NCBI GenBank assembly: GCA_965222115.1
Contig: CBDCTJ010000007.1
Coordinates: 480,001-544,000, forward strand
DNA length: 64,000 nt
Reading direction: 5' to 3'
DNA from: Planctomycetota bacterium
GTDB taxonomy: Bacteria > Planctomycetota > PLA2 > JAEUHO01
The position numbers and the translations under genes are program-made. Shown in pieces: positions 26,010 to 30,106 of the stretch. The stretch's first letter is position 1, and every line of letters begins with the position of its first letter. The notes beneath the pieces are model-generated. The model made no database searches and was not told the origin of the DNA. It saw nothing but the letters and a program-made list of their open reading frames with translations.

Positions 26010-26043
26010 GCCCTAGCAGCACCCCTTGGAGGCCGACTCTATA

Positions 26044-26307
26044 GTGACTCGTTCAATTAACTTATCGCTTACAGACGAACTACGTGCGTTCCTGGATAAG
26101 AACTCAGGCGACGGAACGCTCTACTCAACGCCAAGCGAGTTCGTCCGTGACTTGATTCGTAGACAGAAGGATCGCATGGACGCCGCAGCGCTCCGAACAG
26201 CGGTGCTCGAAGGTTACGCTGCTGTTCGAGATGGTCGCACGCACGAGTACACAGGCGACCTTCGATCCTTGCTTGAGGAGCATCGTGCCGGTCGCGACGC
26301 ATCATGA
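26044..26307 (+). CDS. parD: ParD-family RHH antitoxin
   Basis: SINLSLTDELRAFL...GTLYSTPSEFVRDLIR...LRTAVLEG; GGAGG RBS; ATGA overlap with the toxin. Confidence 0.88.
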   Translation: MTRSINLSLTDELRAFLDKNSGDGTLYSTPSEFVRDLIRRQKDRMDAAALRTAVLEGYAAVRDGRTHEYTGDLRSLLEEHRAGRDAS

Positions 26308-26669
26308 CCAAACTAGTTCTTTCCGAGCGGGCGCTAGCTGATATTGACGCGATTGAACGTTACTCCGTCGAGCGTTGGGGAGAACGAGTTGCAAGCCAGT
26401 ACTTAGCAGATTTGGATGCAGCATTGGCTCGCCTAGCAAGCGACATCTCGCTATTCAGGGAGCGGTACGACTACACGGGTCGTCTTCGTTTCTACAACGT
26501 GCGCGAGCACGTGCTCGTCGGCGATATCATCGAAGGAACTGTGTTCATTCTGACGGTGTGGCACGGAAGCATGGATTTTATCGAACGATTACCGAGTATC
26601 GAGCCAGACCTCGTACGAGAGGCAGAGACACTGACATGCCAGATCGAAGTTCAAACAGATCGTGAATAA
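26304..26669 (+). CDS. parE: ParE/RelE-family toxin
   Basis: LSERALADIDAIERYSVERWGERVASQY...ILTVWHGSMD. Confidence 0.88.
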   Translation: MTKLVLSERALADIDAIERYSVERWGERVASQYLADLDAALARLASDISLFRERYDYTGRLRFYNVREHVLVGDIIEGTVFILTVWHGSMDFIERLPSIEPDLVREAETLTCQIEVQTDRE

Positions 26670-27009
26670 TTATACCCGTTCTGGCACCGCGCCTACCTCC
26701 GGTTCTGTGTGCGTCGCGTGATGCGGGCCAAGGTTTTGCGTCGACTTGCACAGGTGCAAATGGCGAGGGTGCAACTATGTAGTTAACGTTGGGTACATGT
26801 TCTACACACGCCATGTTGCGCGCGTTGCGACACTCAACACAAGCACTTCGTTTGGTGCGTGAAATGTGTGGATTTTGCCCTTCTATGAAAAGGCCTGGCA
26901 TGTCAAGTGCGAAGCCGCGTCGGCGAGCGCATTTACCGCGTTGTGCATGTGTAGTTCGGCCCCTTGAGTGCGCAACTTACCCTTACCGCCCTTGCCTTTT
27001 TGGCAGCGG

Positions 27010-27200
27010 ATCGGGGCGAATCAGATTGCCAGTCATCGTCTCTGGCGCCAGAAAACACGTCCCATTCAGGCTTCTATGCGCACTCGTGTTGGATCGAAGT
27101 TGATGCGACCCGGTGCAAGGTGGGGTCCGAGAACGAGTCTGGGTGCTGCATACTCAGTAGCGACGTCGCTATACGTCGGTCAGGGCACCGCAGTCACCCG
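27010..27200 (-). ncRNA. Bridge/seek RNA of the IS1111-type element (target- and donor-binding loops)
   Basis: Stem-internal loop-stem at 27141-27199 with guides TGCCCT and TACTGAG matching the flanks; a second loop with CATAGAAG and ATCT matching the predicted circle junction. Transcript ends unknown. Confidence 0.75.
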
Positions 27201-27265
27201 GACTCGAATTGGGGTACGTGGAAACTGACCTTATCTAATGCTTGCCTAAAGCTGTTGCGCGAGGT

Positions 27266-28315
27266 TCAGGCGGCCACTGGGCATCGAACCGGTATGTACT
27301 CTTCGCCTGTTCGCCACAGCGCAAGCATGAGCACGGAGAGCTTGCGTGCCACGGCGATGACTGCCTTGCGTTTCGCAACTGCGCCTCCACGCGCAATGAT
27401 CCGCTCACCGTGGGACTTTAGATCGCATGGCGGGCCCAGTCGCCCGAGGATGTGATGCGCGCACTGAACGAGCAACGACCGAACCATACGGTCCCCAGCC
27501 TTCGTTATGCGTAGCTGCTTGTCCATTTGGCCCGATTGATCACGCCGTGGAACCATCCCGAGAAACGCCCCGACATCTCGGCGGTCTTCAAACCGCGCCC
27601 AATCTTGAACGGTCAACATGAATGCGAGTGCCGTGAGATTGCCCACGCCTGGAATCTGAGTGAGCAACTGTGTATCTGGATATCGCTCCTTCGCCAACTC
27701 ATCGATCTTTGCGTCGTAGATCTTTACCAACTCAGTGATTCGCTCGATTGCACTGAGAATGGGATTGAGCACATCGCAGAGCTCCTCCGGAATCTCGGCC
27801 CGCGTCTTCGATCCGATGCATTTTGATGCCTGCTTACGCAACCGCCCGCCCATGCTCTTAATGACACCTCGTAGCGAGTTCACCAACTTGGTTCGTGACG
27901 ACACAAGCGCGGCTCGTGCACGAATCAGCGCAAGGTCTCGTTGTGCGGACTCCGGTCGATGCCGAATTGGGGCAAGTAGTTGGGGATCGAAGCGACCGAT
28001 TTCAGCCAACTTCTTGGCATCCGTTCGATCGGACTTGCGAGTGTTCCTGTAAATAAAGCTTAGCTCTCGCGGATTCGCGACTAGCGACTGAGCACATCGA
28101 CCTTCGACGACCCGACTCGCCCAAGGCGAATGCGTTCCCGCCTCCATCACAACTCGAGCGGTTCGGTGCTTCGAGAGAAACTCGTGAAAAGACTCGCGCG
28201 TTGTCGCGATCTCGCCTTCTTCCTTTTGAACCCCCGTGTCTTGATCCAATACGCAATACCAAGAGAACCGGTCGCCTAGGTCGATGCCAATCGTTTCGGT
28301 GATACGCTTATTCAT
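27266..28315 (-). CDS. IS110-family DEDD recombinase/transposase
   Basis: IGIDLG, VMEAG, KSDRTDA; C-terminal IPGVG...FLGMVPRRDQSG...ITKAGD, AVARKL; AGGAGG RBS before ATG 28315. Confidence 0.97.
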   Translation of the reverse strand: MNKRITETIGIDLGDRFSWYCVLDQDTGVQKEEGEIATTRESFHEFLSKHRTARVVMEAGTHSPWASRVVEGRCAQSLVANPRELSFIYRNTRKSDRTDAKKLAEIGRFDPQLLAPIRHRPESAQRDLALIRARAALVSSRTKLVNSLRGVIKSMGGRLRKQASKCIGSKTRAEIPEELCDVLNPILSAIERITELVKIYDAKIDELAKERYPDTQLLTQIPGVGNLTALAFMLTVQDWARFEDRRDVGAFLGMVPRRDQSGQMDKQLRITKAGDRMVRSLLVQCAHHILGRLGPPCDLKSHGERIIARGGAVAKRKAVIAVARKLSVLMLALWRTGEEYIPVRCPVAA

Positions 28316-28435
28316 GCTGGTAGCTCCTCCTGGGCCGTAGAGCCCGTTTTCTGTTTGCAGCACGGTTTACCGTGACTGCGCGACAGAGGAGCTACCGGCC
28401 TTTTCATCCCATCTCGGTATCTCACTTCGTATCGC

Positions 28436-30106
28436 CTACTTGATCTGCACGGGCACGTTCGTGCGCTGCCCTGTTACGACTATTATTTCCTTCACCTCGA
28501 TGGCATCGGCGTCTCCGACCCCCACGTACAATGTGTACCGGCCGGGACGCAGCGAGTCGATTAAGATATCCTCGCCGTCGGCAATTTGCTCCAGGCTTAC
28601 GTACCAAGTCTTGCCATCCGCCTCTGCCGCTTCCTCGTACCCGATCCTAACTTGTTCATCGACAATACGCTTTCCTCCACGCGAAAGCTGCATGGCGATG
28701 GCGCCAGCACGCGCTAACCGCACCACGAGACTCGGAGCGTCGCCCTCGCTAAGCATGCCGACCGTATCCTCGGTTGGAAGATACCCTGGCATTGATGTCG
28801 TTACCGTGCAGACACCCGCGGGTACGTAGAATCGGGTCGAGCGCCTTTGGCCCTCAACGCTGCAGTTTCCAAATGCGCGCCAGTCACCAGCTACATCCCG
28901 CACGTGCCAGGAGACGTTCGAATCCGGAGGAATCACCTCTCCGGGCGCAGTGACCAGCGAGACTGAAACAGCGATTGATGGAGGTAGTCTAAGATCTAGC
29001 TCCTCGTAGTCCCTCTCAAGCCTGATATCCTTGCTGATGACGTACTTCTCGAGACTAATTGAAAGGCGATAATTGCCCTTGGGGACCTCTGTCTTCACCT
29101 GGGCGGCGTCTTCGAAATCTCGCCCCAGAAGCAGTTTCCTCGACGTTGCCTCAGTTTGGGCGCTCGCGCCCCTGAATTTTACTTCGTCCACATGCGGCAA
29201 GGTGCCGTTTTGCTCAGATACTCGCAGCTTCAACCGGCAAACTTCCTGGAGTGTGCTGTCAACCTGAAGGAAAACGCTACTTGTAACTCCCCGGGCAATG
29301 GTCACTTCTTGACGAACAACTGGCGGAGGTCCATCGAGCCGGTCCTCCCAGTGGTGCCCGTATCGAATCACGATTTCTGCCTCTCCCACCGGAATCCCCT
29401 CCAGAGTGGCAGCGCCGTCTTGACCAATAGTCACATGGTCAATACCTGTTGCTGCCACAAGGTACGCTGACAACCCCAATTTGTCACTCCAACCGTTTAC
29501 GGAAATGCGCAGTGTACCTCCAGGACCAAGTGCAACTGTGCGGGCGTCTCGCGGGCCCGAAGCGCGTCCAGATGTAAGCACAGCCTTACCTGCATACCCG
29601 GGAGCGGCAATCCAGAGGCGCCGTACTTCCGACCGCAAGCCGACCGTACCTCGCGCATCAGAAGCGCCTATGAGACTTGTGTCTGCGCTCACGGGGCGAA
29701 GAATGCGCTCCAAGTAATCCATCTCCGACGAATCCCGGGACTTGACGACATAGACTTGAGCACCCTCAATTGGATGACCATCACGCGTGACGATTCGGAG
29801 CCAATCATTCGGTTGAGGTCCCTTGATACTTTCGAGACCAGCATCTTTAGCGGTATGCCCTCCAGACGACTCCCTGACGGAGGACCCACTGTTAGACGTT
29901 GGATTCGCGTTCCGTGTGACATGAGGCGTCTCGCGGTCCCCATATGGACGTAGTCCCGGTAGATCAGGATTCATAGAACGCGCGTGCTCGCCTAGCACTG
30001 CGACTGGAACCTCTTCACGGGGGGAGATCAGCATCAAGAACATACCGACCATAATGCAAGCCAGTACACCCACGGCGACCTTCTTGCCTCTACTCGGTTT
30101 TGACAT
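28436..30106 (-). CDS. Single-pass membrane protein with carboxypeptidase-regulatory-like beta-sandwich repeats, directly downstream of the RHS gene
   Basis: N-terminal TM VAVGVLACIMVGMFLMLI; DGHPIEGAQV...SDARG; APGYA; LRPGRYTL; 6 bp from the RHS stop. Confidence 0.8.
   Translation of the reverse strand: MSKPSRGKKVAVGVLACIMVGMFLMLISPREEVPVAVLGEHARSMNPDLPGLRPYGDRETPHVTRNANPTSNSGSSVRESSGGHTAKDAGLESIKGPQPNDWLRIVTRDGHPIEGAQVYVVKSRDSSEMDYLERILRPVSADTSLIGASDARGTVGLRSEVRRLWIAAPGYAGKAVLTSGRASGPRDARTVALGPGGTLRISVNGWSDKLGLSAYLVAATGIDHVTIGQDGAATLEGIPVGEAEIVIRYGHHWEDRLDGPPPVVRQEVTIARGVTSSVFLQVDSTLQEVCRLKLRVSEQNGTLPHVDEVKFRGASAQTEATSRKLLLGRDFEDAAQVKTEVPKGNYRLSISLEKYVISKDIRLERDYEELDLRLPPSIAVSVSLVTAPGEVIPPDSNVSWHVRDVAGDWRAFGNCSVEGQRRSTRFYVPAGVCTVTTSMPGYLPTEDTVGMLSEGDAPSLVVRLARAGAIAMQLSRGGKRIVDEQVRIGYEEAAEADGKTWYVSLEQIADGEDILIDSLRPGRYTLYVGVGDADAIEVKEIIVVTGQRTNVPVQIK

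What the first reader, a model, noticed from the sequence alone, without database searches (positions are those of the whole stretch)
27016..27081. Donor-binding loop matching the predicted circle junction, with guide order opposite to the target loop
Seen: the minus strand has GCG-CATAGAAG-CC...GG-CA-ATCT-GATT-CGC. Joining the IS ends predicts the junction TTTTCATAGA-AG-ATGGGATG. CATAGAAG is an exact 8-nt copy of the junction's left half plus core, and ATCT is the reverse complement of core plus AT. This independently supports the AG core and the boundaries 26880/28414. The first donor guide ends in AG while the first target guide ends in CT, so the two loops read their DNAs in opposite order, unlike IS621 where both left guides end in the same core. 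The 4-nt match alone is weak.
Basis: partly seen in the sequence, partly recalled or inferred. Interest (0 to 1): 0.7.

Follow-up and report, generated by a model that had tools for sequence, protein, structure and literature searches.

The report
Donor guides of an IS1111-type bridge RNA
The flagged 8-letter match is a genuine guide in the small RNA that a jumping gene of the IS110/IS1111 family uses to recognise its own ends, but its partner guide lies elsewhere than proposed, and the supposed unusual layout is the one already published for this family.

Summary
Window 26880-28414 (minus strand) is an IS1111-type IS110-family element, with three copies in the genome, all flanked by AG. It has subterminal inverted repeats and a long non-coding region downstream of the transposase gene.

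It sits after a motif, GAGUGCG, conserved across the family. Its last 7 nt equal the right-end terminus plus core in 59 of 64 non-redundant homologues, and they changed together with that end in about 7 lineages. It is the left donor guide.

- It lies in a poorly conserved insert.
- It is ATTT in a sister copy.
- It is absent from the two closest relatives.
- Such a 4-mer occurs in 7 of 57 homologues against 9.8 expected.
- The proposed hairpin folds no better than shuffled sequence.

The covarying right donor guide lies 5' of the left one: CCCAC(CU), 27124-27118. It is separated from it by a conserved GCAC/GUGC stem-loop.

Both loops therefore have the same order: the top-strand-complementary guide is 5' and the bottom-strand-complementary guide is 3'. 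This is reversed relative to IS621. For target matches in IS1111 seekRNAs this reversal is already published. This is a new member of a known kind, of modest interest.

The parts
26880..28414 (-). Complete IS1111-type (IS110-family) insertion sequence, 1535 bp counting one AG core copy at each end (28414-28413 and 26881-26880)
   Evidence: 3 full copies at 98-100% identity with identical termini and different flanks. Contig loose ends occur at 26880 and about 28415-28424 in 4 runs.
27266..28363 (-). Transposase/recombinase ORF. The listed GTG start is at 28363; an ATG at 28315 begins MNKRITETIGIDLGD.
   Evidence: Pfam DEDD_Tnp_IS110 2.5e-18 and Transposase_20 4.5e-22. D28, E74, D112, D115 and S277 are conserved in >=97% of 80 aligned homologues.
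28397..28407 (-). Left subterminal inverted repeat ATGAAAAGGCC, 7 nt (AG + ATGGG) from the left terminus
   Evidence: The family equivalent is ATGAGAAGGC.
26885..26895 (-). Right subterminal inverted repeat GGCCTTTTCAT, followed by AGA + AG
27056..27220 (-). Predicted bridge/long-seek RNA body: closing stem P0 (27220-27206 with 27067-27056), target-binding arm and donor-binding arm
   Evidence: The MFE of 27222-27050 contains P0 and the target arm; z = -2.27, 6 of 200 shuffles as good. The cognate P0 duplex averages -20.4 kcal/mol against -12.8 +/- 0.4 for permuted partners in 54 homologues. No substitution among the 3 copies in 27042-27232.
27182..27188 (-). 5' target guide G-UGCCCU, complementary to the top strand core + right target (AGGGCA of this copy)
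   Evidence: In 58 homologous loci the longest shared stretch with the reverse complement of core + right flank averages 6.8 nt, against 3.4 (maximum 4.0) in 2000 permutations.
27153..27160 (-). 3' target guide CUACUGAG, same sense as left target + core (ATACCGAG here, 7 of 8), followed by UAU
   Evidence: mean 5.9 nt against 3.4 (maximum 3.95) permuted. Flanks.
27118..27124 (-). Right donor guide CCCAC-CU, complementary to 6 of 7 nt of the left-end start AGATGGG. The family-supported part is CCCA, 27124-27121.
   Evidence: The guide matches the reverse complement of the left-end spacer at positions 2-5 in 47, 46, 39 and 40 of 50 rows. That is 153 of 176 cells against 107.9 +/- 4.8 permuted; 0 of 10000 permutations reach it.
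27080..27116 (-). Donor-arm stem GCAC (27116-27113) / GUGC (27083-27080) enclosing hairpin GGGUCG-loop-CGAUCC (27111-27091)
   Evidence: RNAalifold consensus on 39 sequences: 4 pairs, 3 invariant and 1 with a compensatory change in L090.
27071..27078 (-). Left donor guide (C)AUAGAAG, equal to the last 8 nt of the right end including the AG core. It directly follows the conserved GAGUGCG (27085-27079).
   Evidence: the 7-mer equals the right-end 7-mer in 59 of 64 non-redundant loci (permuted 35.5 +/- 2.4, maximum 46). 15 of 19 loci with a non-majority end carry the matching variant. Tree.
27023..27026 (-).
26901..26906 (-). TTGACA, a -35-like hexamer in the right end, conserved as TTGAC in homologues. 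It is the candidate half of a junction promoter (inference).
   Evidence: Sequence. No complete promoter is found in the linear element.

Best explanation
The non-coding region downstream of the transposase gene of this IS1111-type element encodes a bridge (long seek) RNA of about 165 nt (about 27220-27056, minus strand). It has a closing stem, a target-binding arm and a donor-binding arm.

In the donor arm two single-stranded stretches flank a conserved GCAC/GUGC stem-loop:
- The 5' stretch carries the right donor guide CCCAC(CU) (27124-27118). [quoted passage not shown]
- The 3' stretch carries the left donor guide (C)AUAGAAG (27078-27071). [quoted passage not shown]

The target arm has the same layout. 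UGCCCU (5') is complementary to core + right target. CUACUGAG (3') has the same sense as left target + core.

By analogy with IS621, a recombinase tetramer holding this RNA would align the abutted ends (or the two ends in place) with the target and exchange strands at the AG core.

Shown here: the sequence matches, their covariation with the element ends across homologues, and the stems. Inferred: transcription and processing, RNA-protein binding, the circle junction and strand exchange.
For: Family and element:
- Pfam places the protein in the IS110 family.
- Subterminal repeats, a short left end and a 386-nt downstream non-coding region are present.
- Three copies share their termini and an AG on both sides.
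- Uninterrupted paralogous target repeats read GATACGG-AG-TACGGGC with a single AG.

Left donor guide:
- GAGUGCG-N-[AU + 3-nt spacer + core] is present in the non-coding region of nearly all of about 100 fetched homologues at 33-58% protein identity.
- The 7-mer equals the right-end 7-mer in 59 of 64 non-redundant loci.
- Matched variants are GGAAG, AGAAG, AAGAG, AGGAG and GGAGG.
- L043 and L044, sister elements whose bridge-RNA region differs at only a few other positions, differ G/A at both sites.
- On the transposase tree I read 7 lineages in which end and guide changed to the same letters. These include this element against its sisters L031 and L032.

Right donor guide:
- It covaries with the left-end spacer: 153 of 176 cells, with 0 of 10000 permutations as high.

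Structure:
- The target-arm stems carry many compensatory changes, and the GCAC/GUGC stem is conserved.
- P0 is supported by cognate against permuted duplex energies.
- The RNA body is invariant among the 3 copies, while the 72 nt downstream of it carry 7 substitutions.

Literature:
- IS621 loop rules (PMC11208160, passages).
- IS1111 order of target matches (PMC11187229, sections 9 and 12).
- Donor-binding nucleotides of many IS1111 members lie in a multi-loop (PMC11208160).
Against: - There is no RNA evidence: no RNA run was listed, and no circle junction was seen in contigs, which cannot show rare forms.
- 5 of 64 loci have a 1-nt disagreement between guide and end: L020, L026, L041, L068, L087.
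- The formal independent-pairs test on well-supported branches has only 4 pairs (about 3 go the same way, usually none the other way; median p = 0.25), so it is not significant by itself.
- The right donor guide does not cover the core in most homologues, and the position next to the core matches in only 9 of 50. How the core is read on that side is open.
- Two left-end spacer positions vary little.
- 5 of 55 loci were left out because the anchor was not found.
- For ISEc11 a short 82-nt seekRNA carrying the target-matching regions sufficed for transposition, and the role of the long form is stated to be unknown (PMC11187229, sections 10 and 14). A donor loop may therefore not be essential in IS1111 elements.
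- Copies B and C sit in sites that match the 5' target guide poorly.
Confidence: 0.78

Rival explanations
1. The donor loop is the stretch 27081-27016, closed by GCG/CGC and CC/GG, with CAUAGAAG as first guide and AUCU as second. The donor loop then keeps the IS621 order while the target loop is reversed.
For: The letters are present. ATCT is the reverse complement of AGAT. A U at the changed position in copy B could still wobble-pair with G.
Against: - A 4-mer is expected by chance: it is found in 7 of 57 homologues against 9.8 expected.
- It is absent in L031 and L032, which have the same left end.
- It lies in an insert with 7 substitutions in 72 nt between copies.
- In 28 of 57 homologues fewer than 70 nt separate the left donor guide from the right subterminal repeat.
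- The fold is no better than shuffles.
- G27081 and C27080 of the proposed closing GCG belong to the conserved GUGC strand that pairs with GCAC upstream.
- A covarying guide exists on the other side.
Confidence: 0.06
2. The internal CATAGAAG is a DNA-level feature, not an RNA guide: a second, internal copy of the right end used as an alternative recombination site.
For: Two 194-nt fragments on contig C1 begin exactly at the AG of this site (loose end at 27073). ISPpu9 uses duplicated end boxes for modular circles (PMC12288879, passages).
Against: - Only 7-8 nt are shared with the right end. The neighbouring subterminal repeat is not duplicated.
- The site sits at a fixed place in a conserved RNA structure next to the near-invariant GAGUGCG in about 60 diverged elements.
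- Use as a pseudo-site is what a guide-encoding DNA would be expected to suffer, so the fragments fit the guide reading as well.
Confidence: 0.05
3. The donor arm is dispensable or serves another role, such as processing, stability or regulation of the long transcript. A short target-only seekRNA does the recombination, as reported for ISEc11.
For: [quoted passage not shown]
Against: Covariation of both donor guides with the two ends in many lineages is hard to explain without pairing to the ends. Durrant et al. report donor-complementary loop nucleotides in IS1111 members.
Confidence: 0.1

Closest known systems
IS621 bridge RNA (IS110 group; Durrant et al. 2024, PMC11208160; Hiraizumi et al. 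2024)
   Same: - DEDD + Tnp_20 recombinase.
- One RNA with a target loop followed by a donor loop.
[quoted passage not shown]
- A 2-nt core.
- The left guides include the core.
   Different: - The RNA is encoded downstream of the gene, in the right end, not upstream.
- In both loops the top-strand guide is 5' and the bottom-strand guide 3', the reverse of IS621.
- The core is AG here. IS621's CT core is recalled, not checked.
- The donor strands belong to a multi-branch junction closed by P0.
- The subterminal repeats are long (11 bp).
IS1111-family seekRNAs of ISEc11, ISPa11, ISKpn4, ISPst6 (Siddiquee et al. 2024, PMC11187229)
   Same: - Downstream non-coding region and subterminal repeats.
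- A 7-bp left extension.
- The target match to the top strand lies 5' of the match to the bottom strand.
- A long form of 145-170 nt, similar to the about 165 nt predicted here.
   Different: That paper describes target matches only, and found the short form sufficient. Here the extra 3' part carries guides that covary with the element ends. Protein identity to those elements was not measured here.
Predicted IS1111-group bridge RNAs (ISCARN28, ISAzs32, ISPa11; Durrant et al. 2024, Extended Data Fig. 10c)
   Same: The bridge RNA is in the right end, and the donor-binding nucleotides are in a multi-loop rather than a simple internal loop (text read).
   Different: The figure and supplementary tables could not be seen. 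I cannot say whether the guide order found here is already drawn there.
ISPpu9 modular circles (Pares-Guillen et al. 2025, PMC12288879)
   Same: Recombination at an invariant AG. Sub-modules carrying only the small-RNA part are duplicated in the genome.
   Different: ISPpu9 is placed in the IS110 group by its authors and has duplicated end boxes. Here the sub-modules start at internal AG sites without a duplicated end box.

Membership tests
IS110 family (DEDD recombinase elements) | N-terminal DEDD/RuvC-like domain plus C-terminal Transposase_20 domain | tested here: met
   PF01548 2.5e-18 (residues 25-170) and PF02371 4.5e-22 (232-309). D28, E74, D112, D115 and S277 are conserved in >=97% of 80 homologues. 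Their assignment as catalytic residues is by recalled analogy with IS621.
IS1111 group | Subterminal inverted repeats (7-17 bp) set in from the termini | tested here: met
   11-bp ATGAAAAGGCC / GGCCTTTTCAT, 7 nt from the left terminus and 3 nt + core from the right. The same layout is seen in homologues.
IS1111 group | Short left end and long non-coding right end downstream of the transposase gene | tested here: met
   51-99 nt upstream, depending on the start codon, against 386 nt downstream.
IS1111 group | Site-specific insertion without a conventional target duplication, with a shared core dinucleotide | tested here: met
   AG is present on both sides in 3 of 3 copies. Paralogous uninterrupted repeats carry one AG. 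No orthologous empty site was found in 30 related genomes.
Bridge/seek RNA | [quoted passage not shown] | tested here: met
   58 loci: 6.8 and 5.9 nt shared against 3.4 permuted. This copy has UGCCCU / CUACUGAG.
Bridge/seek RNA | Donor loop whose two sides match the element ends on opposite strands | tested here: met
   Left donor guide 59 of 64. Right donor guide 153 of 176 cells against 107.9 permuted.
Bridge/seek RNA | RNA is transcribed, processed and bound by the recombinase | not testable with these tools
   No RNA run was listed. There is no Rfam family for it.
IS110 family | Circular intermediate with abutted ends and a junction promoter | tested here: inconclusive
   No joint appeared in the contigs of 4 runs, which cannot show rare forms. 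TTGACA is present in the right end. No full promoter exists in the linear form.

The most novel reading that the evidence does not exclude
In this IS1111 subfamily the part of the long seekRNA whose role was left open in print is a selected donor-binding module with its own rules. The right guide reads only the 4-5-nt spacer between the core and the left subterminal repeat, and usually not the core. The left guide reads AU + the 3-nt spacer + the core. The DNA that encodes the left guide is itself a donor half-site, and it has been used in this genome to create truncated 194-nt right-end fragments.
Probability: 0.35. Interest if true: 0.45.

Novelty: new member of a known kind. Interest (0 to 1): 0.3.

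Why it matters
This finding gives a clean, covariation-backed map of both guide pairs in an uncharacterised IS1111-type element from an environmental genome. It also corrects a tempting misreading. The reversed guide order applies to both loops and does not differ between them, so no new pairing geometry is needed within one complex.

For people engineering IS1111-type recombinases, the family alignment shows which 7 + 4-5 nt must be co-changed with the donor ends. It also suggests that the long seekRNA form carries donor recognition. The basic biology is already established for IS621 and for IS1111 seekRNAs.

Tried and rejected
- Rfam scan of 26500-28700 at E <= 1: no family.
- Whole 386-nt non-coding region folded alone: z = -0.63, uninformative.
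- Promoter scan of the linear element: 0 sites.
- Sequencing runs: no RNA holder listed.
- Contigs of 4 runs (1 study) laid on 26700-28600: no joint, so nothing on the circle junction. Only loose ends at the element ends and at 27073 and 27204.
- Orthologous empty site: the left flank was searched in 30 related genomes. Only a 73% match to the ParE region in one genome, and no empty site.
- Earlier notes of the scan: nothing returned.
- AUGGGA just 3' of the left donor guide was considered as a second same-sense copy of the left end. Rejected: it is the 3' strand of the closing stem P0, pairing with 27220-27206, and the corresponding stretch shows no evident relation to the left end in the homologues inspected by eye.
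- CGCACUC at about 26975 was considered as a long-range partner of GAGUGCG. Rejected: it lies in the variable insert, and the family-wide partner of GUGC is the upstream GCAC.
- The independent-pairs sign test was not significant: 4 pairs.
- The figure and supplements of PMC11208160 that may show IS1111 donor guides could not be seen.

Full report
**What is there**

The minus strand of 26880-28414 carries a 365-codon ORF (27266-28363) with the two Pfam domains of IS110-family recombinases. Residues D28, E74, D112, D115 and S277 are conserved in at least 97% of 80 aligned homologues. Reading them as the DEDD + Ser catalytic set is by recalled analogy with IS621.

The genome holds three full copies at 98-100% identity. 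All begin AG|ATGGGATGAAAAGGCC and end GGCCTTTTCATAGA|AG, and their flanks differ.

The 11-bp inverted repeats are subterminal. The left end is short and the non-coding region downstream of the gene is 386 nt. This is the IS1111-group layout described in PMC11208160 (passages) and PMC11187229 (abstract).

The target is a repeat that occurs many times in the genome, GATACGG-[TG or AG]-TACGGGCAAAATCCACAC. I saw more than 20 by eye and did not count them by script. Uninterrupted AG variants carry a single AG. Copy B is a simple insertion at that AG.

**The observation**

The letters are as stated.
- CATAGAAG occurs 4 times in the window against 0.63 expected. Two of these are the right end and the flagged site.
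- The proposed 66-nt hairpin is no more stable than shuffled sequence: z = +0.77, with 161 of 200 shuffles at least as good.

**Relatives**

Scans with the transposase gave 20 genome-contig loci and 80 metagenome-contig loci at 33-58% identity.

Their ends are strikingly uniform:
- Left end: core (AG, rarely GG) + a 5-6-nt spacer + ATGAGAAGG.
- Right end: CCTTCTCAT + a 3-nt spacer + core.

**Left donor guide**

In nearly all homologues the non-coding region contains GAGUGCG-N-AU-NNN-(A/G)G.
- After removing redundant rows, and correcting one false anchor (L045), the 7-mer equals the right-end 7-mer in 59 of 64 loci. Permuted pairings give 35.5 +/- 2.4, with a maximum of 46.
- Of 19 loci whose end is not the majority ATGGAAG, 15 carry the same variant in the RNA: AGAAG in 9, AAGAG in 3, GGAGG in 2 and AGGAG in 1.
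- The five disagreements are single-nucleotide: L020, L026, L041, L068 and L087.
- On a FastTree of 58 transposases the end changes at least 9 times and the guide at least 8 times. Six rows were dropped from the tree for stops or short length.
- On that tree I read 7 lineages where both changed to the same letters. These include this element against its sisters L031 and L032, and L044 against its near-identical sister L043.
- The formal independent-pairs test on well-supported branches has only 4 pairs (about 3 go the same way, usually none the other way; median p = 0.25) and is not significant alone.
- The first letter, C27078, is not conserved in the family. The supported guide is therefore 7 nt, and the eighth match here may be a bonus or chance.

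**Right donor guide**

- The reverse complement of the first 4 nt of the left end occurs 3' of the left guide in 7 of 57 loci, against 9.8 +/- 2.8 expected.
- 28 of 57 loci have fewer than 70 nt there.
- L031 and L032, which have the same left end, have none.
- Copy B reads ATTT.
- The surrounding 72 nt (26970-27041) carry 7 of the substitutions between copies, whereas 27042-27232 carries none.

A stretch 5' of the left guide behaves differently. It reads GGA-N-[guide]-NN-UGCAC, and it tracks the reverse complement of the left-end spacer.
- Matches at spacer positions 2 to 5 are 47, 46, 39 and 40 of 50.
- Over the 44 loci with 5-nt spacers this is 153 of 176 cells, against 107.9 +/- 4.8 permuted. 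None of 10000 permutations reaches it.
- Five of 55 loci were left out for lack of the anchor.
- The position next to the core matches in only 9 of 50, and most homologues have no core complement there.
- In this element the stretch is CCCAC-CU (27124-27118), which is 6 of 7 complementary to AGATGGG.

**Structure**

MAFFT + RNAalifold on 39 sequences gave the following:
- The target-arm outer stem and inner hairpin, with many compensatory pairs. For example, columns 55/105 have 22 double changes.
- A 4-bp GCAC/GUGC stem between the two donor guides, invariant except for one compensatory change.

A closing stem P0 joins 27220-27206 to 27067-27056. It is in the MFE of 27222-27050 (z = -2.27). 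Across 54 homologues the cognate strands pair at -20.4 kcal/mol, against -12.8 +/- 0.4 for permuted partners. This explains the AUGGGA that follows the left donor guide.

**Target arm**

In 58 loci the 5' side matches the reverse complement of core + right flank, and the 3' side matches left flank + core. The means are 6.8 and 5.9 nt, against 3.4 permuted.

Here the guides are UGCCCU (27187-27182, AGGGCA in this copy) and CUACUGAG (27160-27153, against ATACCGAG). Copies B and C fit the 5' guide poorly. This may reflect off-target or half-match insertion, and it is unexplained.

**Order of guides**

Both loops run [guide complementary to the top strand] - stem-loop - [same-sense guide ending in the core].

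IS621 has the opposite order in both loops: the 5' side pairs with the bottom strand and the 3' side with the top strand (PMC11208160, passages).

For target matches the reversal in IS1111 elements is stated in PMC11187229 (abstract, sections 9, 12 and 14). It is the second.

**Known or new**

- Durrant et al. predict bridge RNAs in the right end of 93% of IS1111 elements. [quoted passage not shown]
- Siddiquee et al. found the short target-only RNA sufficient for ISEc11, and left the role of the long form open.
- This element is a new member of that kind.
- The covariation of both donor guides is comparative support that the long form carries donor recognition.
- I could not see Extended Data Fig. 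10c or the supplements, which may already show this order.

**Not settled**

No evidence was obtained on transcription, RNA ends, protein binding or the circle junction.

Noticed in passing
window 27204..26880 (unit); L003:855-1502 (G000:C7:2359821-2360468): Genomic copy C of the element is followed by two tandem 323/325-bp units. Each runs from an internal AG (27204-27203, at the 5' foot of the target-arm stem) to the right end, joined CATAGA-AG-TCCGGGTGAC. The last unit abuts a flank TCCGGGTAAC that resembles the internal site. This looks like recombination at a pseudo-site, reminiscent of ISPpu9 modular circles.
   Followed up: partly
L008:2707-2900 and L007:1501-1694 (G000:C1 about 602.2 and 603.9 kb); window 27073-27071: Two 194-nt right-end fragments (93% identity) start exactly at the AG of the DNA encoding the left donor guide. 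Their left flank, GATACC(A), resembles the normal left target. The guide-coding DNA may act as a donor half-site. Nearby on C1 are left-end fragments of 159, 83 and 39 nt.
   Followed up: partly
window 26866-26879 and genome-wide: The insertion target is a multi-copy genomic repeat, GATACGG-[TG/AG]-TACGGGCAAAATCCACAC(T)TTTC. This window's copy sits in a variant lacking TACG, which is the variant that best fits the 5' target guide.
   Followed up: partly
window 27152-27150: In 41 of 54 homologues the 2 nt after the core in the 3' target guide equal the first 2 nt of the left end, which is handshake-guide-like. This element has UA, which matches the uncut target repeat (AG-TA) instead.
   Followed up: partly
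window 26026-26669: A ParE-toxin-domain ORF (26304-26669, Pfam 2.1e-13) overlaps by 4 nt a 93-codon upstream ORF with no Pfam hit. This is probably a type II toxin-antitoxin pair directly beside the insertion. A 73% DNA match exists in one genome of the same order.
   Followed up: partly
G000 contig C6 (48116 bp): GC content is 39.7%, against 55-59% for the other six contigs. It is possibly a plasmid, a phage or a binning contaminant.
   Followed up: no
window 27097-27180 (run X4): A diverged copy of the RNA region in one run carries 6 substitutions. They fall in hairpin loops, stems and linkers, and none lies in the four guide stretches that it covers.
   Followed up: no
G000:C7:2979268-2980347: A second, distant IS110-family transposase gene (26% identity to this one) lies elsewhere in the genome.
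   Followed up: no
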